Virus record (IMG/VR): IMGVR_UViG_3300035188_000849 | Location: 1-63,028 of that record | Length of the DNA stretch: 63,028 bases | Source of the DNA: a virus | Lineage: Duplodnaviria; Caudoviricetes | Strand: one strand, 5' to 3' | Part shown: positions 1,390-45,746 of the stretch, piece by piece | Position numbering within the stretch: position 1 is the stretch's first letter | Layout: each line of letters begins with the position of its first letter | The notes under the pieces: model-generated | Database searches by the model: none | Seen by the model: the letters and a program-made list of their open reading frames with translations, nothing else | What the model was told of the DNA's origin: nothing | Made by a program: the position numbers and the translations under genes

Positions 1390-2439
1390 ATGAAAATAGA
1401 AGATGAAGTGAAGTTAGATTTTTCTGATGTATTAATTCGCCCCAAAAGAAGTGAATTAGAATCAAGAAATGAAGTATCGTTATTCCGCCGTTTTACATTT
1501 AACAATACGGTGTGGGAAGGCGTTCCAATTGCAGCAGCAAACATGGCTGGAGTTGGAACATTCGATGTTGCACAGAAACTATCGGCACACAGAATACTGA
1601 CTTGCATTCACAAATTTTATTCTGCCGAGAGTTGGGTTGACAACTACTATCAACAATATGCGATCAATCCAGATGTAGATTGCCTTGTCTATAGCATGGG
1701 AATGGGTGCGAATCCATACGAAGAATTACAAAAAGCAGAAGCAGTATTGGATAAATGTTCTTTTGTAAAATTCATTTGCATTGATGTTGCCAATGGATAT
1801 ACACAGAAGTTTGCAAACTATGTCAAGACTGTGCGAAAACATTTTCCAGACAAGATCATAATTGCGGGAAATGTTGTGACTAGAGAGATGACAGAAGCAT
1901 TGATTCTCTCTGGTGCAAACATTGTGAAGGTAGGTATTGGTCCTGGATCAGTATGCACAACAAGAAAAGTAACTGGAGTTGGTTATCCTCAATTGTCTGC
2001 GATCATGGAATGTGCAGATGCAGCACATGGTTTGGGTGGGCATGTAATGGCTGATGGTGGTTGCACTTGCCCTGGCGATGTTGCAAAGGCATTTGGTGCT
2101 GGTGGAGATTTCGTTATGTTGGGTGGTATGTTTGCCGGAACAGACGAAGCCGCCCAGTACGAGGTTGGAGAAGACGGAACAGAAACTAGAGTTTTCTATG
2201 GTATGTCCTCCGATGTGGCCATGAATAAGTTTAGTGGTGGTGTTGCATCGTATCGTGCATCCGAAGGAAAGAAAGTTGTTGTTCCGGAGTCAGGTCCAAT
2301 CGATGGGGTTGTGCAACAGATACTTGGTGGTCTTCGTTCTGCTTGCACATATATTGGAGCAAAACACTTGAAAGATTTCCCAAAATGTTGTACATTTATT
2401 CGTGTCAATCGTCAACTTAATACGATTTATGGAGTTTAA
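1390..2439 (+). CDS. guaC: GMP reductase
   Basis: KLDFSDVLIRPKRS, CIDVANGY, VKVGIGPGSVCTTR catalytic loop, ADGG, FYGMSS, YRASEGK; 349 aa with no CBS domains. Confidence 0.95.
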   Translation: MKIEDEVKLDFSDVLIRPKRSELESRNEVSLFRRFTFNNTVWEGVPIAAANMAGVGTFDVAQKLSAHRILTCIHKFYSAESWVDNYYQQYAINPDVDCLVYSMGMGANPYEELQKAEAVLDKCSFVKFICIDVANGYTQKFANYVKTVRKHFPDKIIIAGNVVTREMTEALILSGANIVKVGIGPGSVCTTRKVTGVGYPQLSAIMECADAAHGLGGHVMADGGCTCPGDVAKAFGAGGDFVMLGGMFAGTDEAAQYEVGEDGTETRVFYGMSSDVAMNKFSGGVASYRASEGKKVVVPESGPIDGVVQQILGGLRSACTYIGAKHLKDFPKCCTFIRVNRQLNTIYGV

Positions 2440-3483: not shown

Positions 3484-5160
3484 ATGAAGAATAAACGGCT
3501 AAAATTATTAAAATCATTAATGGAGCAAACACAAACATTTGATCCTGATGCGAATCAACATTTTTCAAAACTTTCACCAGAAGATCAAACTAAGGCAAGA
3601 GAAAGATTTGAAAGATTTGCTAGAGTTGGAGCCATAAACCCAAACACCGCGACTCCATTTGGTTGGAGGAGAGCAACAGGGCCTGTTCATGATCGTGATT
3701 TTCATGGAAGAACCACGGAAGACTATAAAAAAATATATCATGCAAATCGAAGAAGCGGTGCTTCACACGAAGAAGCATTGCAACATGTTCAGGGAATGAG
3801 AAAAAAAGCACATGAAGAGGGACTTGCTGCAATAAAAACTGGTAGAGCAGAACATCTTCGTGGCGAAAGAAATGCTAGAAATTTAACAGCAGCAGATCAA
3901 ATTAAAAGAGATAGTAGGGAATCTACTGACTTATTTCATGCAGCAATGGGCGCAGCCGGTAAAGCTCATGAGTATTTTACCAATGCTACTCAATCTTGGG
4001 ACAAACTATCTCCAGAGGCTACCAAACACCTTTCTTCCATTACACGAATGGCAAGACACGTTATACACAATACGGTTATCGGTGGTTTGAGAAAGGTTTC
4101 TGGTGATTTTGTAAAACACGCACAAGATAGATTTACTTCCAATTTTTCTGGAGTTAGACCTTCAGATTTTGGTTATAGTAAACCACATGACATTGTTCCA
4201 AGTTTAATACGACCAACAAGAGTTCAGCAAATACTAAAAAATTATTCTAATCTGTCCGGTTATCATGGACCCCATAAAGAATATGTTCATGATTTGTATC
4301 AGGGGCCCGATAGAGATGGTTTTGATCCCGGTGGCACTGACAGTAAACGAATGCATGATGTAGCATCACATATTGGTGAACTTGGAGACATACATCCATT
4401 CGCAAGACACCTTCATTTGGGTGCAAGCCATAGAACATCGTCCTCTACTTCTGCAATGCACCACTTTGAAGATATTATAGGTCATCATATGACCAGTCAT
4501 AGATCTTTAGCAGGAACTAGCGATACACCACACGAAGGATTCAGTAGACAGTGGACTAGTAGTTCTCCTATAGGTGCTTATAAATTTACACCACAACACG
4601 GAGATGTTGGAAGCAGAGTTGACGCAGAAAAAAGAAAAGATGTAGATCAGACTATTAGATCTGGAATGCATGATGTTATAGGCCACATTTGGGCAATACC
4701 AAATTTGTCTAGAAGTGATAGAAGAAATTTAATGAAACATTTTGAAGTACAAATGAGGCATCATAATGTAGCAGCAATGGCAAATCCTCGTATGTACGCT
4801 GAACATCACGCAGGGAAAGCAGCACAAGAAGCCGAAGCAGCAGCCAGCCAACGAGAACAAGCCAGAGAAAGAGCCAGGCAAAGAGCAAGTGCTGGTGGCT
4901 CTGGTGAAGCACCACCACCAAGAAGAAGTAGATGGGCTCATAGAGAACAACCACATGAGATTTTGGGTATTGGTCCAAATGCTTCTCCTGCTGAAATTAA
5001 AAGAGCATTCAGAAAATTATCATTACAGCACCATCCAGATCAGGGTGGAAGTGCTGAAATGTTTAAAAAGATAAACGATGCTCATGCACATATGAGTGGC
5101 AAGTTAAATGAAATGGTAATGATGCTTGCCGAATGGATCACAAAAAGATATAAAAAATAA
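3484..5160 (+). CDS. His-rich protein with C-terminal DnaJ J-domain
   Basis: PHEILGIGPNASPAEIKRAFRKLSLQHHPDQGGSAEMFKKINDA with intact HPD; CTAAATA late-promoter-like motif at 3471. Confidence 0.85.
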   Translation: MKNKRLKLLKSLMEQTQTFDPDANQHFSKLSPEDQTKARERFERFARVGAINPNTATPFGWRRATGPVHDRDFHGRTTEDYKKIYHANRRSGASHEEALQHVQGMRKKAHEEGLAAIKTGRAEHLRGERNARNLTAADQIKRDSRESTDLFHAAMGAAGKAHEYFTNATQSWDKLSPEATKHLSSITRMARHVIHNTVIGGLRKVSGDFVKHAQDRFTSNFSGVRPSDFGYSKPHDIVPSLIRPTRVQQILKNYSNLSGYHGPHKEYVHDLYQGPDRDGFDPGGTDSKRMHDVASHIGELGDIHPFARHLHLGASHRTSSSTSAMHHFEDIIGHHMTSHRSLAGTSDTPHEGFSRQWTSSSPIGAYKFTPQHGDVGSRVDAEKRKDVDQTIRSGMHDVIGHIWAIPNLSRSDRRNLMKHFEVQMRHHNVAAMANPRMYAEHHAGKAAQEAEAAASQREQARERARQRASAGGSGEAPPPRRSRWAHREQPHEILGIGPNASPAEIKRAFRKLSLQHHPDQGGSAEMFKKINDAHAHMSGKLNEMVMMLAEWITKRYKK

Positions 5161-11338: not shown

Positions 11339-11716
11339 ATGCAAGTTTGTCGTGCTGAAGAATATCTTCAATTGGCATATCCAATGTGTCTTAGTATTCC
11401 TAGACAGAAGAAGCATGTCTCTTTGATCATTTGCAAAAAGAGAATTATTTCTGTTGGTATGAATTACTTCAAGACCCATCCAAAAGCAAAAGAGATTGGA
11501 TATCAATACGAGGAAATGCATTCTGAACTTGATGCCTTTCGCAAACTAGACAAGCAAGATAGGCAAAAAAAACTACATCTCATTAATGTCCGTTTCAATC
11601 GATTCGGTCAAATGAGAATGTCAAAGCCGTGTGAAAAATGTTTACCGTGGTGTATTGAAGTTTTTCACACAATTCACTATACTACTGATAACGGTGTTAT
11701 CCGTCTTAACTACTAA
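11339..11716 (+). CDS. cytidine/dCMP deaminase-superfamily Zn-dependent deaminase
   Basis: IISVGMN, HSE and KPCEKC zinc-binding motifs. Confidence 0.8.
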   Translation: MQVCRAEEYLQLAYPMCLSIPRQKKHVSLIICKKRIISVGMNYFKTHPKAKEIGYQYEEMHSELDAFRKLDKQDRQKKLHLINVRFNRFGQMRMSKPCEKCLPWCIEVFHTIHYTTDNGVIRLNY

Positions 11717-11727
11717 AAGGAGTAATT

Positions 11728-12030
11728 ATGATTTATCGTACTAGACTGTTTGGATCTGTTGAATCTTTTGTTTGCGCTCTTGTAACCGCTGGTCTTTTTG
11801 TTCACTTTTCTGGTGCAAATTTCGACAATGTTTTGGCTGTAGTTATGGCTATTGCTTCTGTTGGATTTGTTTATCTTGGTATTTCATCCTACAAGGATAA
11901 GAACGAAGATCTTCGTAGTGAACTTCGTGTTGAGCGTGAGTTCACCGCCCAAGAGGATACTAAGCGCGAACTGAATGATCGAATTGCTGGTCTTGAGCGT
12001 GAGTTCAATAATCTAGCAAACAAGAACTAA
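11728..12030 (+). CDS. two-TM membrane protein with C-terminal coiled coil
   Basis: Two hydrophobic stretches; AAGGAG RBS. Confidence 0.65.
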   Translation: MIYRTRLFGSVESFVCALVTAGLFVHFSGANFDNVLAVVMAIASVGFVYLGISSYKDKNEDLRSELRVEREFTAQEDTKRELNDRIAGLEREFNNLANKN

Positions 12031-12040
12031 TCTTGTTGTT

Positions 12041-12114
12041 GGCACGGTAGACCAATAGGCAGAGTCAATAGACTTAAAATCTGTGTAGTGTGGGTTCGAG
12101 TCCCACCCGTGCTA
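12041..12114 (+). tRNA. tRNA-Leu (TAA) with short variable loop
   Basis: GGCACGG/CCGTGCT, ATAGA-CTTAAAA-TCTGT, variable region GTAGT only. Confidence 0.9.
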
Positions 12115-12123
12115 TTTTAGGAG

Positions 12124-12357
12124 ATGCAAATGTTTCGACTTCATATTGATATTCCACTTTCAATGACAGAACAAGATTCAGTTTCTATTTCTCAGAAGAT
12201 TATCGACCTTCTAGAAAAAGAAAAGATGTTGACTTTTGGTGTGGAACAGGTAAATTATCGTTTGGGACACGACGAAGATCGTCAAAAGAGCAATTACTTG
12301 ATCAAGAATGAAAATGGTCATGTCTCAAACAAAAAGTGTCACATTTATTGGATGTGA
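12124..12357 (+). CDS. hypothetical protein
   Basis: AGGAG upstream; start may be the second Met (12130). Confidence 0.6.
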   Translation: MQMFRLHIDIPLSMTEQDSVSISQKIIDLLEKEKMLTFGVEQVNYRLGHDEDRQKSNYLIKNENGHVSNKKCHIYWM

Positions 12358-12363
12358 CTTCAT

Positions 12364-12436
12364 GGGATGTGGGGGTCTGGGAGGCCCAGCCTTGCTTATA
12401 ACGAGGTGGCAGTAGGTTCGAATCCTATACATCCTA
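12364..12436 (+). tRNA. tRNA-Ile (TAT), atypical D arm
   Basis: GGGATGT/ACATCCT, CCTTG-CTTATAA-CGAGG, GTAGG-TTCGAAT-CCTAT; G at position 8. Confidence 0.8.
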
Positions 12437-12439
12437 TTT

Positions 12440-12447
12440 TATAAATA
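12440..12447 (+). promoter_or_regulatory. T4-type late promoter
   Basis: Exact TATAAATA 17 nt before ATG 12465. Confidence 0.7.
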
Positions 12448-12464
12448 AGGTACGGAGAATTAAT

Positions 12465-12890
12465 ATGGCCAAATTTTCAGTACCAGCCGGTTGTAGAGAT
12501 GCGATGACAAACCTTCATAACGCCCACAATGAGCGTTATAACCGCATAAAAACAAAACTAACTCAAGCAAGAGTAGACGCAAAGGAAAGTGATCGTCTAA
12601 TCGGTGCATATATGGACACCCATAATGTTCTGCATGGCGCAGTCCAAAAAGCATTATCTGCAAAGGTAACAGAAATGCCCGACACAGTTAGAGACACACT
12701 ACATGCCGCTAGTGTTCATGCCGGTGATGTTCATTCGTCATTGACAAAAGGCCAAAGAGGCGCTGATATTGGAAGACAAACTGTTGCTGGAAAGCCAGTA
12801 GGATCTAAAATGGCTGGACAAAAAGTAGATCCACAGACACATCTACTAAAAGTAATTTCCGATATTAGAACTAGACACGGCAAACAGTAA
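12465..12890 (+). CDS. His/Ala-rich basic late protein
   Basis: Late promoter plus GGAGA RBS. Confidence 0.65.
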   Translation: MAKFSVPAGCRDAMTNLHNAHNERYNRIKTKLTQARVDAKESDRLIGAYMDTHNVLHGAVQKALSAKVTEMPDTVRDTLHAASVHAGDVHSSLTKGQRGADIGRQTVAGKPVGSKMAGQKVDPQTHLLKVISDIRTRHGKQ

Positions 12891-12907
12891 ACGTTATACT
12901 GTTTGAC

Positions 12908-13048
12908 ATGAAAAACAAAAACTACTTAGAAAAGGTGCTTATTAATTCATTTGCATTTCTTTTGGTGTCTTTTGGTATAACAATGATGATTCTTTCTTTT
13001 TCATTCATGTGTGACACCATTAAAAAGATTGAAATTTACACAAAATGA
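12908..13048 (+). CDS. small membrane protein (46 aa) not in ORF track
   Basis: MKNKNYLEKVLINSFAFLLVSFGITMMILSFSFMC...; ATGA overlap with next gene. Confidence 0.5.
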   Translation: MKNKNYLEKVLINSFAFLLVSFGITMMILSFSFMCDTIKKIEIYTK

Positions 13049-13227
13049 TAGACATTGAAATTCGATTAATGGAATTGGCCAATAAATGGCGATATGCAAA
13101 CCAAGAAGTATATGATGTTTGCAGAGATGCCGTTGAACAAATTCGTTTGTTGAGAGTCACTAACCCAAAGAAAACAATGCCATATGATCCCGGAACCAGT
13201 GGTTGGGGTAAGGGTAAAGATGAATAA
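13045..13227 (+). CDS. hypothetical protein
   Basis: ORF packing. Confidence 0.55.
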   Translation: MIDIEIRLMELANKWRYANQEVYDVCRDAVEQIRLLRVTNPKKTMPYDPGTSGWGKGKDE

Positions 13228-13390
13228 CGAGAAAAAATATTTTACCTACTACGATGCATTATTTGCAACCGCAATTTTGTGCATAACATTCTTTATGCAA
13301 CTCATAGTATTTGAACGTTTGGAAACTCGCGTTAAGGATCTTGAAATCAAAATTTCAGCATATGAATTCCGAAACTCGCAATTTGATTGA
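13220..13390 (+). CDS. small membrane protein (MNNEKKY...)
   Basis: One hydrophobic segment; overlaps neighbours. Confidence 0.5.
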   Translation: MNNEKKYFTYYDALFATAILCITFFMQLIVFERLETRVKDLEIKISAYEFRNSQFD

Positions 13391-13922
13391 TCACTACCAC
13401 TACTGGAACACAGATGCCATCATTGCTGATCTTGAGACTAAGCGGTTTAACTATAGTGTTTTGTGTTGCAATATTGGCAACGATTTTAATATCGCAACTG
13501 TGGTACGCAATGCGAATGCATTTTTGGCGAAGGAAGTAGTGATCTATGGCAATAAGAAATACGATAGACGGGGGACTGTCGGTACTCATCACTACACCAA
13601 ATTCCGTCATGTTAAAGGCATTGAAGATCTCGGCTCCTACATTGAAGAAACTATTTCCAAGTATGAAGGCAAAGTTAAATTATTGGGAATTGACAATGTA
13701 CCTGAAGCAAAAGATGTAAACACATTTGATTTTGATCCAAGTGTGCATTATATTATGATTTTTGGTCAGGAACAAATTGGAATTCCTGCCAATGTTTTGT
13801 CTATGTGTGATGATCTTCTTTACATTCCCCAGTACGGCTCTGTGAGAAGCATCAATGTTGGTACTGCCTCTGGTATTATAATGAACAATTATTGTGCCAA
13901 GGTTCACTCCTTCGTGGTGTAA
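13362..13922 (+). CDS. SpoU/TrmH-family (SPOUT) RNA 2'-O-methyltransferase
   Basis: NIGNDFNIATVVRNANAF, IFGQEQIGI, IPQYGSVRSINVGTASGI motifs; start placed at MNSETR. Confidence 0.9.
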   Translation: MNSETRNLIDHYHYWNTDAIIADLETKRFNYSVLCCNIGNDFNIATVVRNANAFLAKEVVIYGNKKYDRRGTVGTHHYTKFRHVKGIEDLGSYIEETISKYEGKVKLLGIDNVPEAKDVNTFDFDPSVHYIMIFGQEQIGIPANVLSMCDDLLYIPQYGSVRSINVGTASGIIMNNYCAKVHSFVV

Positions 13923-13978
13923 TGGTAGCACAAGAGGCTTTGAACCTCTTTGTCTAAGTTCGAATCTTAGCGAAGGAA
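13908..13978 (+). tRNA. tRNA-Gln (TTG)
   Basis: TCCTTCG/CGAAGGA, AGAGG-CTTTGAA-CCTCT, CTAAG-TTCGAAT-CTTAG. Confidence 0.93.
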
Positions 13979-13980
13979 TT

Positions 13981-14256
13981 ATGAAAGACACTTTTAAATC
14001 TCGTTATAATCAAAAGCGCACAATCACAGAACAAGGTGATGGTTCTTACTTGGTTGAGGGAGAGAGCCGGTATTATCGCTGTGGTGCTAATGAAGGAGAG
14101 GATAGCATTTGGATGGTAGACTTTGAAGGTGGTCCATTTATTGCTGTTGGCGATCCTTTGCTTGGTTCCAAGAAAGAATATGGAACAGTAACTAGAATCG
14201 AAATTCTTAAAGAACAAAAAGAAGGTAGTTTTGCCGTAAAAGTATTTTGTGAATAA
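13981..14256 (+). CDS. hypothetical protein (MKDTFKSRY...)
   Basis: ATG directly after tRNA-Gln. Confidence 0.6.
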   Translation: MKDTFKSRYNQKRTITEQGDGSYLVEGESRYYRCGANEGEDSIWMVDFEGGPFIAVGDPLLGSKKEYGTVTRIEILKEQKEGSFAVKVFCE

Positions 14257-14264
14257 ATACTTGT

Positions 14265-14645
14265 ATGGCTGATCAATTTTCTTTCAATATCGATCCATCA
14301 TTACTAGAAGGTGATTTTGGCTTTAGCACAGTAAACCAAGAAGAACTTGGTAGTTTGCTTTCTCCTAGTCTGACTGAGCCAGAAGAAATATCTGCTATTA
14401 AGTCAAAACTAGATTTGATTTTAGAGATGAATTCCACATGCGAAGGTGCAATGGCTGTAAAGTCTCAATATGACGAATTGCTCAAAGCCAGAATGACCGA
14501 AATCGAAAAAGTAATACTACCTCTTCTCGCTAGTCTTAAAAAGAACAAAGCAAAAGATTATATCTTTTGGCCAGGCGCACAGAGAGAAGCCCAGTGTGAT
14601 CTTCAAATTCAAAAACTTTTATCCTTGACTCGCGCAAAACTTTGA
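14265..14645 (+). CDS. conserved T4-like phage hypothetical protein
   Basis: DFGFS and PLLASLKKNKAKDYIFWP motifs; AATAAATA at 14252. Confidence 0.7.
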   Translation: MADQFSFNIDPSLLEGDFGFSTVNQEELGSLLSPSLTEPEEISAIKSKLDLILEMNSTCEGAMAVKSQYDELLKARMTEIEKVILPLLASLKKNKAKDYIFWPGAQREAQCDLQIQKLLSLTRAKL

Positions 14646-14653
14646 ATTATAAT
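14625..14653 (+). promoter_or_regulatory. sigma70-type promoter for tRNA-Gly
   Basis: TTGACT-N17-TATAAT. Confidence 0.75.
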
Positions 14654-14661
14654 TCAGTTGT

Positions 14662-14733
14662 GCGGGTGTAACTCAGTGGTAGAGTGTTGGTTTTCCAAAC
14701 CAATTGTCGAGGGTTCGATCCCCTTCTCCCGCT
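14662..14733 (+). tRNA. tRNA-Gly (TCC)
   Basis: GCGGGTG/CTCCCGC, TTGGT-TTTCCAA-ACCAA, GAGGG-TTCGATC-CCCTT. Confidence 0.92.
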
Positions 14734-14739
14734 TACTAT

Positions 14740-14820
14740 GCGTAGTTCAGTGTGTGATGCTGACTAGGATCATTGGTTGCAAACAGTGATTGAGTATGGG
14801 TGCAGGCCCCACGCTACGCT
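14740..14820 (+). tRNA. non-canonical tRNA-like element, Cys-type (GCA anticodon, U discriminator)
   Basis: GCGTAGT/GCTACGC acceptor; TCAGT/GCTGA stem; GATCATTG/CAGTGATT stem with TTGCAAA loop; TGGG-TGCAGGC-CCCA arm. Confidence 0.55.
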
Positions 14821-14822
14821 TT

Positions 14823-15170
14823 ATGAATACATTATTTGTTGAAAATAGAACTGAAGAGTGGCAAAAATATAATAGTTATTGTGGTACTAATAAATGGTTT
14901 GCTGGCTGGGCTATTAATTATAATGCCGCTACAAATGGTTTAGGTTATCAAAATTATGATTATGTTGTAATTGGAGACACACTCGGAGATGGTGAATCCC
15001 CGGTGTCTTTTGTGAAATACATTATCGATAATCGTATAAAAATTGGTACAATATTATTGTTCATAGAAAATAGTCATTTAAGGCAGACTATTGAAGATGA
15101 ATTTCTTAAAAACTTTTATTCAGTAAAAATTTTTACCAATTCTTGGGAAGAAACTTTTGCTAATAAATAA
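14823..15170 (+). CDS. receiver-like domain protein (degenerate)
   Basis: MNTLFVEN ... YDYVVIGDTLGDG resembles the LFLDD ... LDHDLG pattern of cyclic-phosphate-processing receiver domains. Confidence 0.45.
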   Translation: MNTLFVENRTEEWQKYNSYCGTNKWFAGWAINYNAATNGLGYQNYDYVVIGDTLGDGESPVSFVKYIIDNRIKIGTILLFIENSHLRQTIEDEFLKNFYSVKIFTNSWEETFANK

Positions 15171-15172
15171 CT

Positions 15173-15435
15173 TTGGTATTGTTGATCTCGGATAGAAACA
15201 CGAACAGCACTGGGGTTCGAATCCCCACGACTCCATTAGCCTAACCGAAGGATTCTGCAATTCCTTAGAGATGGCGAGACAAGTCCTCGTAGCAGCGGGG
15301 CACAATTAGGGGTCGAAAGGAATCGACTGGCGTAGAGTATTGAAGAAGGAGATACCCGACACGGGTAACAAGTGTCGTAAATAAACAGTTGCAACAACAA
15401 AAGCCGCACCAATGCGGATGGCTGCTTAAAGCAGT
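15173..15435 (+). ncRNA. ssrA: circularly permuted (two-piece) tmRNA; tag ATTKAAPMRMAA
   Basis: T arm and 3' acceptor strand (TGGGG-TTCGAAT-CCCCA-CGACTCC-A, 15211-15235) precede the 5' strand GGGGTCG (15309); G3:U70 pair; pk1-like pairing; tag frame 15391-15429 ends Ala-Ala-stop. Outer ends approximate. Confidence 0.9.
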
Positions 15436-15442
15436 GGGGTTT

Positions 15443-15477
15443 CCCGGTTTTCCCGCGACTGAAAAACCGGGTTTTTT
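15443..15477 (+). terminator. intrinsic terminator after tmRNA
   Basis: CCCGGTTTT/AAAACCGGG then T6. Confidence 0.8.
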
Positions 15478-15478
15478 A

Positions 15479-15506
15479 TTGAATGCCAATTTAGTTTTAG
15501 TATAAT
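15479..15506 (+). promoter_or_regulatory. sigma70-type promoter
   Basis: TTGAAT-N16-TATAAT; ATG 6 nt after -10 implies a leaderless mRNA. Confidence 0.6.
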
Positions 15507-15512
15507 ACAATT

Positions 15513-15806
15513 ATGCCAAAACGAGTATGGGATAACATTGACGAAGAAGCAGTTTCTCAAGGTAATGCATTTCGTCGGCAACTCACTCAGATTGCCAAAC
15601 GAGCAATGGGTAAGCAAATTATCAAACAACGCAAAATGCACCTAGACGGTGTTTATGTCGTTCAACGCAAACTTGTGGGTGTGAAATTCCTGCCGCTAGG
15701 ATTGAAGCACTACCATATACCACTAAATGTGTCAAGTGTTCTGATGCCAAGCCATATGTTGGCTTCATGGATTGGTATCATAAGACAGCACCCGAACTTG
15801 TTATGA
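15513..15806 (+). CDS. basic hypothetical protein; C-terminal half may be an out-of-frame artefact
   Basis: From about 15670 the -1 frame encodes a recognisable zinc finger. Confidence 0.45.
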   Translation: MPKRVWDNIDEEAVSQGNAFRRQLTQIAKRAMGKQIIKQRKMHLDGVYVVQRKLVGVKFLPLGLKHYHIPLNVSSVLMPSHMLASWIGIIRQHPNLL

Positions 15807-15868
15807 TCAACTCAGGAGATAAAGAAAATCTCCGAAGAGCGCAACGAGTCTCAAACAGAGCCCGCTAA
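15655..15868 (+). pseudogene. DksA/TraR C4-type zinc-finger protein, frame-disrupted or frameshift-expressed
   Basis: 15674-15868 reads CGCEIPAARIEALPYTTKCVKCSDAKPY...RAR*; no in-frame start; out-of-frame ATG at 15655. Confidence 0.7.
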
Positions 15869-15882
15869 ACAGCGGGTTTTTT
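15859..15882 (+). terminator. intrinsic terminator
   Basis: CCCGCT-AAAC-AGCGGG then T6. Confidence 0.75.
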
Positions 15883-17236
15883 ATTTCACATTAATTTTGA
15901 TCGATAACTTTCTATCGGCAGATGTCAGATAGAAAGTTGTATTCTTTTGGCCTGTTTTTATTGATATGTAAGAATTTGAAGTTCCTGGCAGACCAATATT
16001 CAACACATCTTCCGTGATTCTTGTTATCTTGGAATTTGGTTCTGTTGATGAAAAGGTAAATAAATTGTTCAATAGAGTTGGGCTTGTGAGTATAAATTTA
16101 AGAGTTGTGTTTTTATCTACTTGTAATTCGGAAATGACGCCACTATTGCTTGCTAGCGTGTTATTTGTCTTTTTCAGTTCGATGATATTGAATTTGGTCT
16201 TTGGTCTGACATAAGAAACAGATTCAACCACCCCCACCGTTTCTTCTGTGGTGGTTTGTGCTGAAGAAGTAATTCCGGCTATAAACTGTTGAGATTGTTG
16301 GCTAATTATTTCAATATCAACATCTTCACATGTTGTGTTCGCTGTGTATGTTGATAGTATTGCGTTTAGTTGTTTTTTCCGTTCATCACACAAAAACATA
16401 TTTTGGCAAGGTATGCAAACGGGGCTTCCCTGTGGGAAGTTCAATACGCATGTTCCATATGTTTTATCATTTATATTAGCATTTGTTTTTGATTCGCCTT
16501 GAAGATACAAATTAACTAAGATAGGCGAACCAATTAAATTTTCATTTGCTATAGTCTGATCTACTTGTAAATTTTCAAAGCCATCTGAATCTACAAATAT
16601 GTTCATAACCTTGAACTTTTTATTTTGATTGCTTTGAGAGCCACTAAATTCAATATAGTCCCCTATTCGTACTCCCATTTTGGTAAATGAGAAAAGACCA
16701 TTAGACAGGGTATTTTTGATTAAGTTTTTTCTTTGATTTGAAGAAGAAACCGTGGTGGAAACCTTTGAGAGTTGTGGTGTTGTGACAAAAAACTTTGGAT
16801 TATATAAATCCTTTTTTGTTGAAACGTTAGTAGCAGACACCAACTCTGCTCGTATTATTGTGTTCTGATCAAATGATTTGAATGTATAGATTCCAGATAA
16901 ATTTGATTTTACATTATTAGAATCTTCAACATAGTTTGCGTTTGAAAATTCAAATGTTATACCAGATTGAACTGAATTAAAGAACGAAGAAATAAAAGCC
17001 AAATCGTCTGGATTTTTAGAATTGCTGTAATCTATTACAACCTTTGTCTGTGAATCATAAAACAAAAATGAGGGTGTTGTGGTTAATGACCTATTTTTCT
17101 TGAATGTATAGTCTTCTGTTGATGAAAAAATTAATCCAAAGAATACATCACTTGCAACCAGATAAAATGATCTAGTGTCTAAGTTTGTAAATGCTCTTTT
17201 GGTATTTTTTCTAAAACCAGACATATTAAGAGCCAA
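15881..17236 (-). CDS. hypothetical, probably virion structural protein
   Basis: 451-aa Ser/Thr/Asn-rich ORF coupled to upstream gene. Confidence 0.6.
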   Translation of the reverse strand: MALNMSGFRKNTKRAFTNLDTRSFYLVASDVFFGLIFSSTEDYTFKKNRSLTTTPSFLFYDSQTKVVIDYSNSKNPDDLAFISSFFNSVQSGITFEFSNANYVEDSNNVKSNLSGIYTFKSFDQNTIIRAELVSATNVSTKKDLYNPKFFVTTPQLSKVSTTVSSSNQRKNLIKNTLSNGLFSFTKMGVRIGDYIEFSGSQSNQNKKFKVMNIFVDSDGFENLQVDQTIANENLIGSPILVNLYLQGESKTNANINDKTYGTCVLNFPQGSPVCIPCQNMFLCDERKKQLNAILSTYTANTTCEDVDIEIISQQSQQFIAGITSSAQTTTEETVGVVESVSYVRPKTKFNIIELKKTNNTLASNSGVISELQVDKNTTLKFILTSPTLLNNLFTFSSTEPNSKITRITEDVLNIGLPGTSNSYISIKTGQKNTTFYLTSADRKLSIKINVK

Positions 17237-39957: not shown

Positions 39958-42804
39958 ATGGCTTCAATACGGGGTAGTAGCCAATTTAGACAGTTAAAGG
40001 GAGCAACCGTATTTGGTATAACCGGACCTGTAGGGCCCACAGGTGCAACCGGAGCAAATAATCCAGGACCAACTGGTGCTACTTCTGAAAAATATGCCAT
40101 AGACATAGATATCACTGGTTCTTATATTTTAAGAACTCAGTTCTATGATGGTGATCGTATAGCGGCATCTGGAAAATTATACGGCATAACAGGAAATACA
40201 GTAGTAATATTAGATGGTAAAACCGGACCTACTGGTAGTGGATATGTTTTTGCAGGATCATCTGCTGCAAATAGAGAAGTAACACTAAGAGGAATAACTG
40301 GGAGCACTGGATTTAGAGCATTTGTTGGGGTTACTTCAGACAATGAAACAATAACAATTTTTGTTGAAAAATATGATGGTGAATATACTCTTTTCTCTGG
40401 AACATTTACAGACATAATTGCAACAGATAATTCTTTAAATTTAATTGGAATTACTTCTGCAAAATATGGAGAGTTTACTCAAACTCTATTGATAAGAAAA
40501 GCAAATGTTTTTGAAAAAGTAAAATCTCAAGCAGGAAATACAGGATCTCTTACATATACTGCTCAACAATTTGGTTCGTTTCCTATTGAAACTTTAAACA
40601 TTAATTTAGATCCTGTTAATTCTTATAACAACAATAAAGATAGAAATTCTAGATCAAAGGTATTTTCTATTGACTTAAATTCATTTGGCTACCAATTAAT
40701 ACAAATAAACATAACAGACCCACCAGTAGATGAACCAATTGGTTTTAGTCTTCATTTACAAAATGGTCCAGGATATAATCCTTCAAGTGTATCAACAGAA
40801 ACAGTTTTATTTAAATCTGTTAGTGGTAAGCCAATTCAATTTCCATTAAATAAACAGCCATGTGTTTATCTACAGAATAAAAGTTATGTAATTCATTTTG
40901 TTTCAATAAAAGATACATGGTATGCATATGTGTTTGGAAGCGATTCTGGAGATGAATCTTTTTTCTGTGATAGTGAAGAATATTTTGCTTATTCATCAAA
41001 TCAATCTAATGTACTAAATGATTATTATGGAATAACTGGTGCATGTTGTACTCCAACTGGTTGTACTTTAACAACACTTTATGGTTGCACTGGATACTTT
41101 GTAGGAGCCGGTAGTACCTGTGGAACAATAGGAACTAATAGTATCTGTTCTGAGCAACTGGGTTCATGTTGTGTTAAAAACATAGTTGATGGAAAAGTAA
41201 ATCAATATTGTATTGATGATATTAGTGCAATTGATTGTCTTTCTTTGAGAGATAATTCAACAGACACAACTTTTGGTGGTATTGGAAAAACATGTTTAGA
41301 TTTAAATTGTTCAAATTCGTTTGATACTATTGGTGGCTGTTGTGATGGGTTTGGCAATTGTTCTGAGTTAGAAGAAACTCAATGTATTTTAAGTGGCGGA
41401 AACTACTTGGGTGATGGAGTTTTATGTTATTCTGAAAATAAACAACCAACTTGTTCAACTGGTATTGGTGCTTGTTGCAAATCTGGAATATGCACAGAAG
41501 AAACAATAACTAGTTGCTTACAGTCTGGGGGCAGATACTATGGCTCTGGTATAAGTTGTGGAGATGTCATGTGTTCTGCTGCATCTCTTTCGTGTGGTGA
41601 ATCTATAGGAGTTCCCATTAAGCCAGGAGATGTTATTGGTGGTGGTGTTGTTGTTGGCATTTACAACCCAAAACAATCTAAATTACTGGGAGCAGCACAT
41701 GCGTTTTCTTCTACCGGAATTACATCAACCTTCATGTTTGGCGGAGAAACCTTAGCAAAGTATTATCAAAGTGAAATTGATTATGTTGGTTATGGTTTAA
41801 CCGGAGAACAATGCGATGTTACAACAGGACAGCAATTAGATTCATATTATTTGATTGTTTCTTTGAATCATGCCGCAGTTAATTCTAACGGAGATTTGAT
41901 TAATCCAACTGAAGAAAGTTCTTCAAAGGAACAATTTGTTTGGTACGGATCTGGCATTGGTTGGGGTCCAATTTTAAATCTTCAAACTTATAGACCTGAT
42001 GATTTTACATTTTTGAACCAAACTTATGATTCTCTTTATATGAGATATGGAGAGGGTTATTATGGAATAACCGGGGAATCTTTAGACATAATAATAGAAA
42101 CTACATTCCAAACCTGTTATGAGACTAGAAAAAACGGAACTGATCCAGTTGCTAGACTATTTACTAGAAATATAAAAACATCAAATGGTATATGGAACAG
42201 AAACTGGGGGTTGTACAATACTATTCGCATGATTTCCGCTGATAACGCACATTACTTAAAATTAAAGAAATCTGGAATTTACACAGAAACTGATTTTGAT
42301 TGTGGGCAGAATATAACTTCTATTCAAGTGTGTAGTTTGTTTGATTCTACTGATACAACAAACTCGGTTGGTTTGACAGCAAATCCATCTGGATTGTCTG
42401 ATTGGTATTTACCAAGTCATGATGAACTTGCTTTTATTGCCGCTAATGTTGTTACAGATTCTACAAATTCTTATAATGGTTTTGATCTGAATTCAGCAAT
42501 TCTTCAACAAAACGGAACTCCAATTTATGGCTGGTATTGGTCTTCTACTGGATCTTTTGATATAACTAATAAAGAAGAGGGAGTTTATATTAATGGAAAA
42601 CCAAATCATGGATCTGTTGCGTGGGCAATTTATTTTGATGAAAATGGATCTTCCTCTAATTTTAAGGTAAAAAAAGAAGACAGACAAAAAGAATTAAAGG
42701 TTAGACCAATACGAGCAATTCGATGTGATGGAGTTATTCCAAATACAAATAAACCAGAATATAAATTATGGAAATTACCAAAATTATTAAGAGATAATAT
42801 CTAA
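39958..42804 (+). CDS. Cys-rich fibre-like protein: collagen-like N-terminus, GACC repeats, Lcl/DUF1566-like C-terminus
   Basis: GPVGPTGATG; GACC/GSCC repeats; DWYLPSHDEL, YWSST, AWAIYF, VRPIR. Confidence 0.7.
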   Translation: MASIRGSSQFRQLKGATVFGITGPVGPTGATGANNPGPTGATSEKYAIDIDITGSYILRTQFYDGDRIAASGKLYGITGNTVVILDGKTGPTGSGYVFAGSSAANREVTLRGITGSTGFRAFVGVTSDNETITIFVEKYDGEYTLFSGTFTDIIATDNSLNLIGITSAKYGEFTQTLLIRKANVFEKVKSQAGNTGSLTYTAQQFGSFPIETLNINLDPVNSYNNNKDRNSRSKVFSIDLNSFGYQLIQINITDPPVDEPIGFSLHLQNGPGYNPSSVSTETVLFKSVSGKPIQFPLNKQPCVYLQNKSYVIHFVSIKDTWYAYVFGSDSGDESFFCDSEEYFAYSSNQSNVLNDYYGITGACCTPTGCTLTTLYGCTGYFVGAGSTCGTIGTNSICSEQLGSCCVKNIVDGKVNQYCIDDISAIDCLSLRDNSTDTTFGGIGKTCLDLNCSNSFDTIGGCCDGFGNCSELEETQCILSGGNYLGDGVLCYSENKQPTCSTGIGACCKSGICTEETITSCLQSGGRYYGSGISCGDVMCSAASLSCGESIGVPIKPGDVIGGGVVVGIYNPKQSKLLGAAHAFSSTGITSTFMFGGETLAKYYQSEIDYVGYGLTGEQCDVTTGQQLDSYYLIVSLNHAAVNSNGDLINPTEESSSKEQFVWYGSGIGWGPILNLQTYRPDDFTFLNQTYDSLYMRYGEGYYGITGESLDIIIETTFQTCYETRKNGTDPVARLFTRNIKTSNGIWNRNWGLYNTIRMISADNAHYLKLKKSGIYTETDFDCGQNITSIQVCSLFDSTDTTNSVGLTANPSGLSDWYLPSHDELAFIAANVVTDSTNSYNGFDLNSAILQQNGTPIYGWYWSSTGSFDITNKEEGVYINGKPNHGSVAWAIYFDENGSSSNFKVKKEDRQKELKVRPIRAIRCDGVIPNTNKPEYKLWKLPKLLRDNI

Positions 42805-45743: not shown

Positions 45744-45746
45744 AAT

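What the first reader, a model, noticed from the sequence alone, without database searches (positions are those of the whole stretch)
14740..14820. Non-canonical Cys-type tRNA-like RNA
Seen: 6 nt after tRNA-Gly, a cloverleaf with a 7-bp acceptor stem, a 5-bp stem starting with no connector, a 4-nt linker, an 8-bp anticodon stem around (G)TTGCAAA and a T-like loop TGCAGGC. Known: GCA anticodon plus U73 are the main CysRS identity elements, and both are present. Inference: either a remodelled functional tRNA-Cys, which would suit the very Cys-rich tail proteins of this phage, or a tRNA mimic or decoy against anticodon nucleases. Standard scanners may miss it.
Basis: partly seen in the sequence, partly recalled or inferred. 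Interest (0 to 1): 0.7.

Follow-up and report, generated by a model that had tools for sequence, protein, structure and literature searches.

The report
Anticodon-less tRNA-shaped RNA of lake phages

Summary
It belongs to a family: 55 copies and 37 distinct sequences in viral and metagenome contigs. All lie on the tRNA strand inside tRNA/tmRNA arrays of T4-like phages. Covariation is strong: 97.2% of cells are paired, 17 of 24 pairs show double changes, and 0 of 500 shuffles reach this.

The tRNA-Cys reading fails.
- ARAGORN and the Rfam tRNA model never call the element.
- The 'anticodon' loop is 2-9 nt long and takes 15 different forms. One variant has only a tetraloop.
- GCA is absent in 9 of 37 sequences and sits in shifting registers in the others.
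- The acceptor pairs are C2-G71 and G3-C70, the reverse of the bacterial Cys set.

What is conserved:
- the acceptor end G1-C72, C2-G71, G3-C70, with U73 in 33 of 37 (the same as the phage's own tRNA-Gly);
- a CUAG linker;
- a T-like loop UGCARGY.

My best reading is a non-decoding tRNA mimic. It would be transcribed with tRNA-Gly from a sigma-70-like promoter and cut out by the tRNA-processing enzymes. What it does in trans is unknown; a Gly-type acceptor or a decoy are possibilities.

The apical loop changes fast but mostly stays self-complementary. This allows a bolder reading, a kissing-loop dimer, which is unproven. No RNA data were available.

The parts
14625..14653 (+). sigma-70-like promoter (TTGACT-17-TATAAT) 8 nt upstream of tRNA-Gly; likely start of the transcription unit tRNA-Gly, element, ORF, tmRNA
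   Evidence: 11 of 12 matches, the best of 16 sites in 11500-16000. This is a consensus match only. TATAAT/TACAAT also precedes tRNA-Gly in L003 and L002.
14662..14733 (+). canonical tRNA-Gly(UCC), acceptor GCG.../...CGC with U73
   Evidence: ARAGORN; Rfam tRNA 67 bits
14740..14820 (+). the tRNA-shaped element (81 nt), type A of the family
   Evidence: covariance model R1 102.5 bits; covariation
14740..14746 (+). acceptor stem, 5' strand (pairs with 14813-14819). Pairs 1-3 (G-C, C-G, G-C) are invariant; pairs 4-7 covary.
   Evidence: pairs 1-3 are 37 of 37 identical; pairs 4-7 have double changes in 6, 7, 2 and 1 sequences
14747..14763 (+). D-like arm: 5-bp stem joined to the acceptor with no connector; 7-nt loop GUGUGAU
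   Evidence: helix 2: 100% paired, 4 of 5 pairs with double changes. Loop is GUGUGAU in 29 of 37, GUGUGAC in 5, other in 3.
14764..14767 (+). linker CUAG
   Evidence: CUAG in 36 of 37, AUAG in 1. L164 (type B) has CCAG.
14768..14791 (+). long arm: 8-bp stem plus 8-nt apical loop GUUGCAAA (14776-14783). This is the supposed anticodon arm.
   Evidence: helix 3: 99.3% paired, 7 of 8 pairs with double changes. The loop has 15 sequence types.
14792..14796 (+). junction strand GAGUA (GAG is conserved in type A)
   Evidence: GAG starts this segment in 36 of 37
14797..14811 (+). T-like arm: U-A plus GGG/CCC stem and 7-nt loop UGCAGGC (family consensus UGCARGY)
   Evidence: all 37 loops fit UGCA[AG]G[CT]. 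The stem becomes GAGG/CCUC in type B (L096 second copy, L164, L139), which supports the 7-nt-loop register.
14813..14820 (+). acceptor stem 3' strand (14813-14819) and discriminator U (14820); no encoded CCA
   Evidence: Discriminator is U in 33 of 37 and G in 4. None of the window's 11 tRNAs encodes CCA either.
14823..15170 (+). ORF of 115 aa whose ATG lies 2 nt after the element; no family hit. In L001 the same ORF follows tRNA-Gly directly.
   Evidence: no Pfam hit; no PHROG hit for the longer TTG form
15175..15429 (+). circularly permuted (two-piece) tmRNA gene. In 14 of 31 viral contigs the element lies 3 nt upstream of this gene.
   Evidence: Rfam RF04321, 60.8 bits against a gathering score of 47; flanks
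15857..15880 (+). terminator-like hairpin with T run; likely end of the unit
   Evidence: 10 pairs, 5 G-C; consensus match only

Best explanation
Proposed mechanism, step by step. (1) It is transcribed on the tRNA strand, here from the sigma-70-like promoter at 14625-14653 together with tRNA-Gly, a small ORF and the two-piece tmRNA. This is inferred from layout. (2) It folds into a four-way junction: a 7-bp acceptor stem, a 5-bp arm stacked directly on it, an 8-bp long arm and a T-like hairpin. The helices are shown by covariation; the 3D shape is inferred. (3) It keeps an acceptor stem and a T-like arm, and only 2-6 nt separate it from its neighbours. It would therefore be cut out by RNase P and 3' trimming, and given CCA, like the flanking tRNAs. 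This is inferred. (4) It cannot decode, because the apical loop has no fixed length, frame or triplet. This is shown. Its short T stem and UGC in place of T-Psi-C probably keep it away from EF-Tu and the ribosome. This is inferred by analogy with staphylococcal non-proteogenic tRNA-Gly. (5) Selection acts on the acceptor end (G1-C72, C2-G71, G3-C70, mostly U73, the same as the phage's own tRNA-Gly and the bacterial glycine set) and on the T-like loop UGCARGY. I therefore think it acts in trans as a tRNA mimic recognised at its acceptor/elbow end. Most likely it is either a glycine-accepting, ribosome-excluded carrier or a sink for a host factor that binds tRNA acceptor ends. Step 5 is the weakest and is inference only.
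For: It is a family, not a one-off. Scans of viral contigs gave 30, 31 and 32 stretches. The metagenome scan gave 35 stretches, 34 of them confirmed by model R1. Together this makes 55 matches and 37 distinct sequences. Three divergent type-B copies were added later (L096:7981-8069, L164, L139).

The structure covaries. 97.2% of cells are paired, 17 of 24 pairs have double changes and 0 of 500 shuffles reach this; slid controls give 33-52% pairing. The MAFFT-only alignment gives the same picture.

The structure is strand-specific. G-U/U-G pairs are frequent: 27 of 37 at pair 7, 35 of 37 at pair 12 and 24 of 37 at the base of the long arm. The reverse strand scores 22 bits against 99.5.

It always sits in tRNA arrays. 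In 31 viral contigs the next gene, 2-4 nt downstream, is the tmRNA in 14, tRNA-Tyr in 11, tRNA-Ser in 2 and tRNA-Glu in 2. One has an ORF (the window) and one is unclear.

GC content is 51% in a 35% GC genome, like the tRNAs.

It does not decode. There are 15 loop types of 2-9 nt, and L042/L043 carry a tetraloop. ARAGORN never calls it. Rfam tRNA gives no match even at E<=10.

The acceptor end is invariant while pairs 4-7 covary. Other tRNAs of the window start with GGG, GCC, GUU, UCC or UGG, so GCG is not a general processing requirement.

The bacterial glycine determinants U73, G1-C72 and C2-G71 come from passages of PMC9976931. That non-proteogenic tRNA-Gly lacks G18-G19 and U55 and is excluded from EF-Tu comes from passages of PMC13443448.

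Type A (L037) and type B (L139) occupy the same slot, between the same ORF end (...YYYDI[E/K]PTK*) and the tmRNA. The slot is therefore conserved across strong sequence divergence.
Against: There is no expression or end-mapping data. No RNA run holds the stretch, and the contigs laid did not cover the element usefully.

The single-sequence fold is not significant (z = -1.53).

The closest relative by the flanking protein (L001, 96% identity) lacks the element in the fully covered stretch from tRNA-Gly through ORF and tRNA-Tyr to tmRNA. None of 29 more distant relatives' records has it (these are fragments, 3-70% complete). It is therefore dispensable.

The glycine idea lacks C35/C36, which are part of the Gly set. 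Four of 37 members have G73.

Invariance of some motifs is partly built in, because the search patterns required them: ACTAG, TGAG and GGGTGCA, and TGTGTGATG.

The family is narrow. It was found only in lake-type viral and metagenome contigs. There was no match in 50,697 GenBank phage records and no cellular genome match apart from one 9.5-kb contig binned in a MAG.
Confidence: 0.7

Rival explanations
1. Pure punctuation. The tRNA-like fold has no trans function. It only gives RNase P and the 3' processing enzymes a handle to separate neighbouring transcripts: the mRNA from the tmRNA precursor, or tRNA-Gly from the leaderless ORF at 14823.
For: In 14 of 31 viral contigs it lies between an ORF or tRNA and the tmRNA gene with a 3-nt spacer. 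In the window an ATG follows it by 2 nt, as after tRNA-Glu (5370) and tRNA-Gln (13981). A free, fast-changing or even truncated apical loop (L042) fits a role limited to the acceptor and T side. L001 uses tRNA-Tyr in the same place before the tmRNA.
Against: In 11 of 31 contigs it is sandwiched between tRNA-Gly and tRNA-Tyr, and in others between other true tRNAs. No extra processing handle is needed there. In the window the tmRNA is preceded directly by an ORF, so the tmRNA does not need it. The 8-bp long arm is maintained by 7 covarying pairs, and the loop and linker motifs are conserved beyond what RNase P needs. L096/L101 carry two copies in tandem.
Confidence: 0.15
2. One reading: a remodelled but functional tRNA-Cys(GCA), charged by CysRS and used to translate the Cys-rich tail-fibre genes.
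For: U73 is present in 33 of 37. The GCA trinucleotide is in the loop of 28 of 37. Passages of PMC9976931 say U73 alone can confer Cys identity on minihelices. Four ORFs at 39958-52247 have 3.4-5.3% Cys, and no tRNA-Cys is found in the window.
Against: The loop is 8 nt here and 2-9 nt in the family. GCA falls in different registers (GUUGCAAA against ACUUGCAAG). It is replaced by UUAUAA, UGUACA, GCGC-type or GAUC apexes, or by a tetraloop, in otherwise near-identical backbones. The stem is 8 bp instead of 5. Acceptor pairs 2-71 and 3-70 are the reverse of the bacterial Cys determinants. There is no G18G19 and no T-Psi-C. ARAGORN and the Rfam tRNA model give nothing.
Confidence: 0.03
3. A decoy or inhibitor aimed at a host anticodon nuclease: the long arm mimics a target tRNA's anticodon arm and soaks up the nuclease.
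For: Phage tRNA arrays are known counter-measures to tRNA-cleaving defences (recalled, not tested here). Fast loop evolution could reflect an arms race.
Against: A decoy must resemble the target's anticodon stem-loop. Here the stem is 8 bp, the loop length varies, and no loop matches a constant tRNA anticodon loop. The L042/L043 lineage has lost the loop but keeps the rest. The conserved parts are at the opposite end of the molecule.
Confidence: 0.06
4. A DNA-level element (a palindromic protein-binding site, origin or recombination hairpin), or a decaying tRNA pseudogene, rather than a functional RNA.
For: The apex of the long arm is often a perfect DNA palindrome (TTGCAA, TTATAA, TGTACA, TTTGATCAAA). 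The element is absent from the closest relative.
Against: Frequent G-U pairs make the helices imperfect on the opposite strand, and the reverse strand scores 22 against 99.5 bits. Four helices that bring the two ends together covary, which a DNA site does not need. A pseudogene would not keep 97% pairing through 17 compensated pairs.
Confidence: 0.04

Closest known systems
Canonical bacterial or phage tRNA-Cys(GCA)
   Same: 7-bp acceptor stem; U73 in most members; a GCA trinucleotide in the commonest apical loop; position inside a tRNA array; no encoded CCA, like its neighbours.
   Different: No connector at positions 8-9, a 5-bp first arm, a 4-nt D-to-anticodon linker, an 8-bp 'anticodon' stem and a loop of variable length and sequence. 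The T loop is UGCARGY and there is no G18G19. Pairs 2-71 and 3-70 are C-G/G-C, not G-C/C-G. Not recognised by ARAGORN or Rfam RF00005.
Staphylococcal non-proteogenic tRNA-Gly (NP1-NP3), glycine donors for FemXAB (passages of PMC13443448 and PMC4574755)
   Same: Glycine-type acceptor end. Loss of the conserved D-loop G18-G19 and of U55 in the T loop. Expected exclusion from EF-Tu and the ribosome. Encoded next to ordinary tRNAs.
   Different: The NP tRNAs keep a UCC anticodon and a near-canonical cloverleaf and are proven GlyRS substrates. The phage element has no anticodon and a different junction layout. No charging data exist and no Fem-type transferase was looked for. This is an analogy of principle, not homology.
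Phage T4 stable RNAs 'species 1' and 'species 2' (rnaC, rnaD), co-transcribed and processed with the T4 tRNA cluster; function still unknown. Recalled, not from any call: one search found no paper in the library.
   Same: Non-tRNA small RNAs embedded in a T4-type tRNA cluster, presumably matured by the tRNA-processing enzymes through an acceptor-like stem.
   Different: As I recall, the T4 RNAs are longer (about 120-140 nt). No sequence or structure comparison could be made here. No match to the element was found in the GenBank phage collection, which includes T4-like phages.
Irregular tRNAs and allo-tRNAs (8/4, 9/3) of bacteria and phages, and tRNA-Other of Bacillus cereus (passages of PMC5389517)
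   Same: Non-canonical cloverleaves found in phage tRNA clusters, some with longer anticodon stems. Some are proposed to be regulatory or charged in unusual ways.
   Different: Allo-tRNAs keep a 12-bp acceptor/T branch, a long variable arm and a readable anticodon. Extending the acceptor to 8 or 9 pairs does not work here: positions 8 and 9 do not pair with the bases before the 3' strand (read).
L065:8197-8270(-), a tRNA-Gly(UCC)-like gene in an unrelated high-GC phage tRNA array
   Same: The same unusual T arm (GGG-UGCAAGU-CCC), CUAG in the D region, GAG before the T arm, and a place right after a tRNA-Gly. Missed by ARAGORN.
   Different: It has a standard 76-nt cloverleaf with a 5-bp anticodon stem, the loop CUUCCAA and an encoded CCA. 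It scores 24.1 bits with Rfam tRNA but only 24 bits with R1. It may mark the kind of tRNA-Gly from which the element descends. This is one sequence only and the link is not tested.
Kissing-loop dimerisation hairpins such as the HIV-1 DIS: 6-nt self-complementary loop flanked by purines. Recalled. Of the review PMC7357161 only the listing and the start of its abstract were seen.
   Same: A hairpin whose apical loop carries a 4-8-nt self-complementary core. The core changes between lineages yet stays self-complementary.
   Different: No evidence of dimers here. Eight of 24 arm types are no more dimer-prone than shuffled loops. Symmetric mutation of a DNA palindrome could give the same pattern.

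Membership tests
tRNA-Cys (decoding) | Recognised as tRNA by covariance or heuristic detectors | tested here: not met
   ARAGORN finds 11 tRNAs in the window but not this one, and it never calls any family member. Rfam RF00005 gives no match at E<=10 over 14600-15500 or over both copies in L096. The only Rfam row touching the element is sR4 at 14819-14859, E=5.2, which is noise.
tRNA-Cys (decoding) | 7-nt anticodon loop with U33 and G34-C35-A36, conserved in relatives | tested here: not met
   The loop is 8 nt here. There are 15 loop types of 2-9 nt in 37 distinct sequences. GCA is absent in 9 of 37 and in shifting registers in the others.
tRNA-Cys (decoding) | Discriminator U73 | tested here: met
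   U at 14820. U in 33 of 37 and G in 4 of 37. U73 is also the bacterial tRNA-Gly discriminator.
tRNA-Cys (decoding) | Bacterial acceptor determinants G2-C71 and C3-G70 (Table 1 of PMC9976931) | tested here: not met
   All 37 have C2-G71 and G3-C70; table read.
tRNA-Cys (decoding) | Cysteinylation by CysRS and use on the ribosome | not testable with these tools
   Needs in vitro charging and tRNA sequencing.
Canonical tRNA fold (any specificity) | 2-nt connector at 8-9, 4-bp D stem with G18G19, 5-bp anticodon stem, 5-bp T stem with T54-Psi55-C56 | tested here: not met
   0-nt connector, 5-bp first arm with loop GUGUGAU, 4-nt linker, 8-bp long stem, 3-4-bp T stem with loop UGCARGY.
Non-decoding tRNA-like RNA processed from a tRNA operon | Conserved acceptor-type stem joining the 5' and 3' ends, supported by covariation | tested here: met
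   Helix 1 is 98.5% paired and 4 of 7 pairs have double changes.
Non-decoding tRNA-like RNA processed from a tRNA operon | Same-strand position inside tRNA arrays with tRNA-like short spacers | tested here: met
   In 29 of 31 viral contigs a tRNA or the tmRNA follows within 2-4 nt. tRNA-Gly precedes within 3-6 nt in 14 of the 33 rows.
Non-decoding tRNA-like RNA processed from a tRNA operon | A discrete mature RNA with processed ends and added CCA | not testable with these tools
   No RNA run holds the stretch, and the contigs laid gave no ends.
Non-proteogenic tRNA-Gly type (ribosome-excluded glycine carrier) | Glycine acceptor set G1-C72, C2-G71 (G3-C70) and U73 | tested here: met
   Pairs 1-3 are invariant in 37 of 37 and U73 is in 33 of 37. 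The set was read. The same bases occur in the window's tRNA-Gly.
Non-proteogenic tRNA-Gly type (ribosome-excluded glycine carrier) | Glycine anticodon (C35, C36) and proven glycylation | tested here: not met
   No UCC or GCC in any loop. Glycylation is not testable here.
Any Rfam 15 family | Match to a curated covariance model | tested here: not met
   There is no gathering-level match on the element and no meaningful match at E<=10.

The most novel reading that the evidence does not exclude
The element is a self-pairing tRNA mimic. Its long arm ends in a self-complementary loop through which two copies kiss (or a type A and a type B copy, as in the tandem pair of L096). The fast turnover of that loop, which nevertheless keeps the palindrome, would set partner specificity between phage lineages, as with retroviral dimerisation sites. 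The apex forms seen are UUGCAA, UUAUAA twice independently with UUGUAA as the G-U intermediate, UGUACA, CGCG, and GAUC. A dimeric tRNA-shaped RNA with two Gly-type acceptor ends would be a new kind of phage effector.
Probability: 0.15. Interest if true: 0.8.

Novelty: new variant of a known kind. Interest (0 to 1): 0.55.

Why it matters
Phage tRNA arrays are usually read as codon-usage or anti-defence toolkits made of ordinary tRNAs. Here a conserved, covarying, tRNA-shaped RNA that cannot decode sits among them, and the standard annotators (ARAGORN, Rfam) miss it. That shows these arrays also carry tRNA mimics.

The family comes ready for experiment. It has a defined covariance model and about 40 natural variants. 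There are natural 'mutants': a truncated arm, a G73 variant, type B copies and tandem copies. The hypotheses are clear: RNase P processing, CCA addition, glycylation and dimerisation.

If the RNA is charged, it would be the first phage analogue of the ribosome-excluded glycine tRNAs of staphylococci. If it is a decoy, it would point to a host factor that reads tRNA acceptor ends.

It also corrects a tempting mis-annotation as tRNA-Cys.

Tried and rejected
Tried without result:
- Close relatives in the GenBank phage collection. Only the neighbouring tRNAs matched. The element itself gave only chance hits of 22-25 nt at E of about 1-10. The L065 tRNA-like region gave no match.
- RNA evidence. 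'No RNA holder listed'. 14 lake-water DNA runs from as many studies hold half or more of the sampled words. Four runs labelled RNA-Seq (probably DNA) with small shares were laid. Their contigs cover parts of tRNA-Gly and the tmRNA of relatives. They give no usable cover, ends or joints on the element.
- Wider family. 0 of 29 records of more distant relatives match R1 at E<=0.1 (these are fragments). R1 was run on 79 of them and added only L164 and L139. R2 run on 100 loci added nothing new; its L157 hit is a normal tRNA-Val.
- Cellular homologues. Of the 8 genome contigs stretches, only L111 is a true match (97.3 bits). It is a 9.5-kb contig in a Bacteroidota MAG, identical in type to the viral L057, so probably a binned phage contig.
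- Literature. Searches found no description of such an element. From these I saw only listings and the passages cited. Supplements are closed, so tRNA tables in the supplements of phage papers (for example PMC9004378) could not be checked.

Considered and rejected:
- An 8/4 or 9/3 allo-tRNA fold. Positions 8 and 9 do not pair with the bases before the 3' acceptor strand.
- A GNRA-type tetraloop register for the T-like hairpin (the RNAalifold choice). It is rejected because type B (GAGG/CCUC) and L065 (UUGGG/CCCAA) fit only the 7-nt-loop register.
- Pairing of the apical loop with the T-like loop (both contain UGCA). It is rejected because the T loop stays UGCA when the apex changes to UAUA, GUAC, CGCG or GAUC.
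- The element as part of the tmRNA. The ARAGORN 'tmRNA*' calls overlap its last ~28 nt in relatives. The same calls overlap tRNA-Tyr in L001, and the Rfam model starts after the element, so this is a boundary artefact.
- A known ribozyme or riboswitch. No Rfam match, and the downstream gene differs between relatives.

The dimer test is mixed. Compared with 200 loop shuffles each, 10 of 24 arm types are in the most dimer-prone 5%, 6 lie at 5.5-10.5% and 8 at 20% or more. cofold models extended duplexes, not true kissing complexes. Symmetric deamination or template switching in a DNA palindrome could also keep the apex self-complementary.

Full report
THE OBSERVATION

The window is a 63-kb, 35% GC fragment of an uncultured T4-like myovirus. 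CheckV puts it at about 27% complete. It encodes a baseplate wedge protein, a large terminase and a portal; the portal is about 52% identical to those of cyanomyophages. The DNA is held almost only by lake-water metagenome runs.

ARAGORN finds 11 tRNAs. Rfam finds the same 11 plus a circularly permuted tmRNA at 15175-15429. Neither reports anything at 14740-14820.

- a 6-nt spacer after tRNA-Gly(UCC);
- a 7-bp acceptor stem (six Watson-Crick pairs and one U-G);
- a 5-bp stem with no connector, around the loop GUGUGAU;
- the linker CUAG;
- an 8-bp stem around the 8-nt loop GUUGCAAA;
- GAGUA;
- a T-like hairpin, U-GGG-UGCAGGC-CCC-A;
- one C, the acceptor 3' strand, and U73.

ViennaRNA returns the same four-way junction. 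Alone it is not significant: z = -1.53, and 18 of 200 shuffles fold as well.

IT IS A FAMILY

The protein encoded just upstream (14265-14645) led to 31 related viral loci. Two of them (L002, L003) carry the same element beside tRNA-Gly, tRNA-Tyr and the tmRNA. The closest one, L001 (96% protein identity), does not. There the order is tRNA-Gly, the small ORF, tRNA-Tyr, tmRNA.

Motif scans then widened the set:
- IMG/VR gave 30, 31 and 32 stretches.
- The metagenome collection gave 35 stretches.
- A covariance model (R1) confirmed 34 of those 35 and all the viral ones.
- In all there are 55 matches and 37 distinct sequences.

Three strongly divergent 'type B' copies were then found:
- a second copy in tandem in L096/L101 (38.9 bits);
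- L164, between two tRNA-Ser genes (49.9 bits);
- L139 (32.6 bits).

L139 (type B) and L037 (type A) sit in the same slot. It lies 6 nt after the stop codon of the same ORF (...YYYDI[E/K]PTK*) and 3 nt before the tmRNA. The two types therefore replace each other at one locus.

The family was not found elsewhere:
- none in 29 records of more distant relatives (fragments);
- none in 50,697 GenBank phage records;
- none in Rfam;
- none in cellular genomes, except one short contig binned into a MAG.

THE STRUCTURE IS SELECTED, AS RNA, ON THE tRNA STRAND

On the MAFFT alignment of the first 18 distinct sequences, 97.9% of cells pair, 13 of 24 pairs have double changes, and 0 of 500 shuffles reach this. 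On the 37 distinct sequences, 97.2% pair and 17 of 24 pairs have double changes, again with 0 of 500 shuffles. That alignment is fitted to the model, which favours the structure. Sliding the partners drops pairing to 33-52%.

Helix by helix:
- Seven of the eight long-arm pairs covary. GAUCAUUG/CAGUGAUU and ACUUGUCU/AGACAAGU share almost no letters.
- Four of five pairs of the first arm covary.
- Acceptor pairs 4-7 covary.
- The T-like stem is invariant GGG/CCC in type A but GAGG/CCUC in type B. This fixes the register with a 7-nt loop.

G-U pairs are common (27, 35 and 24 of 37 at three positions), and the reverse strand scores 22 bits against 99.5. The constraint is therefore on the transcript of the tRNA strand, not on duplex DNA.

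CONTEXT

In 31 viral contigs the gene 2-4 nt downstream is:
- the tmRNA in 14;
- tRNA-Tyr in 11;
- tRNA-Ser in 2;
- tRNA-Glu in 2;
- unclear in 1;
- an ORF in the window.

tRNA-Gly is the upstream neighbour in 14 of the 33 rows.

In the window a near-consensus sigma-70-type promoter (TTGACT-17-TATAAT, 14625-14653) lies 8 nt before tRNA-Gly. A strong terminator-like hairpin lies at 15857-15880. The likely unit is tRNA-Gly, element, 115-aa ORF, tmRNA. None of the window's tRNAs encodes CCA, and all are followed by U-rich trailers like the element's.

These facts make co-transcription and tRNA-type processing the natural inference, but no read data could test it.

WHY IT IS NOT tRNA-Cys

- The loop takes 15 forms of 2-9 nt in 37 sequences.
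- In the commonest two, GUUGCAAA and ACUUGCAAG, the GCA triplet falls in different positions relative to the stem.
- Within one otherwise identical backbone (the L003/L040 group) the loop reads GUUGCAAA, GUUGUAAA, GUUAUAAA, GUGUACA, GUACAAA, UUUGCAAG or GUUGCAAC.
- L073/L086 and L102 have GCGC-type loops, and L139 has a GAUC apex.
- L042/L043 have only a 6-bp stem with a UGUU tetraloop, while the rest of the molecule is intact.
- The stem is 8 bp.
- Acceptor pairs 2-71 and 3-70 are the reverse of the bacterial Cys determinants (passages and Table 1 of PMC9976931).
- The D and T loops lack G18G19 and U55.

The Cys-rich ORFs are real (3.4-5.3% Cys at 39958-52247) but irrelevant to this RNA.

WHAT IS CONSERVED, AND THE MECHANISM I COMMIT TO

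The invariant or nearly invariant parts are:
- G1-C72, C2-G71 and G3-C70 (37 of 37);
- U73 (33 of 37);
- the YNAG linker (CUAG in 36 of 37);
- the C before the 3' acceptor strand (37 of 37);
- the T-like loop UGCARGY (37 of 37, and also in type B).

Part of this is imposed by my search patterns. The acceptor bases were not in the pattern, and only CGC was in that. GCG is not a general start for this phage's tRNAs.

The acceptor end equals that of the phage's own tRNA-Gly and matches the bacterial glycine set, minus the anticodon bases C35 and C36.

A T loop without U55 and a D loop without G18G19 are the hallmarks of the staphylococcal non-proteogenic tRNA-Gly species. Those are charged by GlyRS but kept off EF-Tu (passages of PMC13443448 and PMC4574755).

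An unrelated high-GC phage (L065) carries a nearly canonical tRNA-Gly(UCC)-like gene with the same UGCAAGU T arm, right after a tRNA-Gly. ARAGORN misses it and Rfam tRNA scores it below threshold, at 24.1 bits. It hints at a tRNA-Gly ancestry, but it is a single case.

My best explanation is therefore a processed, non-decoding tRNA mimic read at its acceptor/elbow end. Glycylation without ribosomal use, or titration of a host factor that binds tRNA acceptor ends, are the most likely activities. I give the general reading about 0.7. Any specific activity gets much less.

RIVALS

Pure punctuation (0.15) fits the contigs where the element precedes the tmRNA or an ORF start. In this window ORFs begin 2 nt after tRNA-Glu, after tRNA-Gln and after the element. 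It does not explain the copies sandwiched between two true tRNAs, the covarying 8-bp arm, the conserved loops, or the tandem pair.

An anticodon-nuclease decoy (0.06) conflicts with the loop being the least conserved part.

A decoding tRNA-Cys (0.03) and a DNA element or pseudogene (0.04) are contradicted by the data above.

THE ODD APICAL LOOP

The apex is mostly self-complementary. The forms are UUGCAA, CUUGCAAG, UUAUAA (in two different backbones, with UUGUAA as a possible G-U intermediate), UGUACA, CGCG, and UUUGAUCAAA.

The central four bases of a hairpin loop cannot pair in cis. The pattern therefore needs another cause. One is pairing in trans (kissing or an extended duplex). Another is a symmetric mutational process acting on a DNA palindrome.

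A cofold test against loop shuffles is mixed. Ten of 24 arm types fall in the top 5%, 6 fall near 5.5-10.5%, and 8 are no better than shuffles. I keep the dimer idea as the most novel reading, at about 0.15.

NOVELTY AND VERDICT

Non-decoding tRNA-like RNAs are a known kind. Examples are the T4 species 1 and 2 RNAs (recalled), tRNA-Other and irregular tRNAs, and non-proteogenic tRNA-Gly.

This family has a junction layout, T loop and variable palindromic apex of its own. It is in no Rfam model, and I found no description of it in four literature searches (supplements closed).

I rate it a new variant of a known kind, with interest 0.55. The structure and the family are solid. The function is open, and no expression data exist yet.

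Noticed in passing
window 15175-15429 (+): Circularly permuted (two-piece) tmRNA gene: Rfam RF04321, 60.8 bits, with G3-U70 in the acceptor stem as read from the alignment. ARAGORN misses it in the window but calls permuted tmRNAs in relatives, with tags such as ANIKAAPMRMAA, ANELAMAA and AAPMAMAA.
   Followed up: partly
window 5370, 13981, 14823: ORFs begin with ATG exactly 2 nt after the 3' end of tRNA-Glu (56 aa), tRNA-Gln (ORF to 14256) and the element (115 aa). This suggests mRNAs whose 5' ends are made by tRNA processing (leaderless, or without a Shine-Dalgarno sequence), a mitochondrion-like punctuation layout.
   Followed up: partly
window 13311-13922 (+): SpoU/TrmH-family RNA 2'-O-methyltransferase ORF (Pfam PF00588, E=5.3e-22) inside the tRNA region. 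Its last 15 nt overlap tRNA-Gln (13908-13978).
   Followed up: no
L065:8197-8270 (-): In an unrelated high-GC phage array of 23 tRNAs there is a 76-nt tRNA-Gly(UCC)-like gene with T loop UGCAAGU, D loop UGCUAGA (no GG) and an encoded CCA. It lies between tRNA-Gly(GCC) and tRNA-Ala. ARAGORN misses it, and Rfam tRNA scores it 24.1 bits, below the gathering score of 29. It is a possible phage counterpart of non-proteogenic tRNA-Gly.
   Followed up: partly
L096:7894-8069 and L101:502-677: Two copies of the element in tandem, type A then type B, 5 nt apart and followed by tRNA-Glu. Both apical loops contain UUGCAA/UUUGCAAA.
   Followed up: partly
window 39958-52247 (+): Four consecutive large ORFs (948, 979, 1311 and 854 aa) with 3.4-5.3% cysteine, against 1.8% over the 26 large ORFs counted (these four included). 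They are probably tail fibres. TGT outnumbers TGC 195 to 79.
   Followed up: no
window 1390-2439 and 3484-5160 (+): An auxiliary-type IMPDH/GMP-reductase ORF (PF00478, E=2.1e-72), and a 558-aa ORF with a C-terminal DnaJ domain (PF00226, E=4.6e-13), both among the tRNA genes.
   Followed up: no
window 12363-12437 (+): tRNA-Ile(UAU) scores only 34.3 bits with Rfam tRNA, the weakest of the 11. It has an odd D region (GGGGGUCUGGGAGGCCC).
   Followed up: no
L111 (JBEGUW010000083.1, 9.5 kb): A contig binned into a Bacteroidota MAG carries an element identical in type to viral L057 (97.3 bits). It is most likely a phage contig mis-binned into the MAG.
   Followed up: no
L037, L041, L045 and other relatives: ARAGORN's permuted-tmRNA calls start about 28-31 nt upstream of the Rfam tmRNA start, so they swallow the 3' third of the element (or of tRNA-Tyr in L001). 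This boundary artefact could hide the element in automatic annotation.
   Followed up: yes
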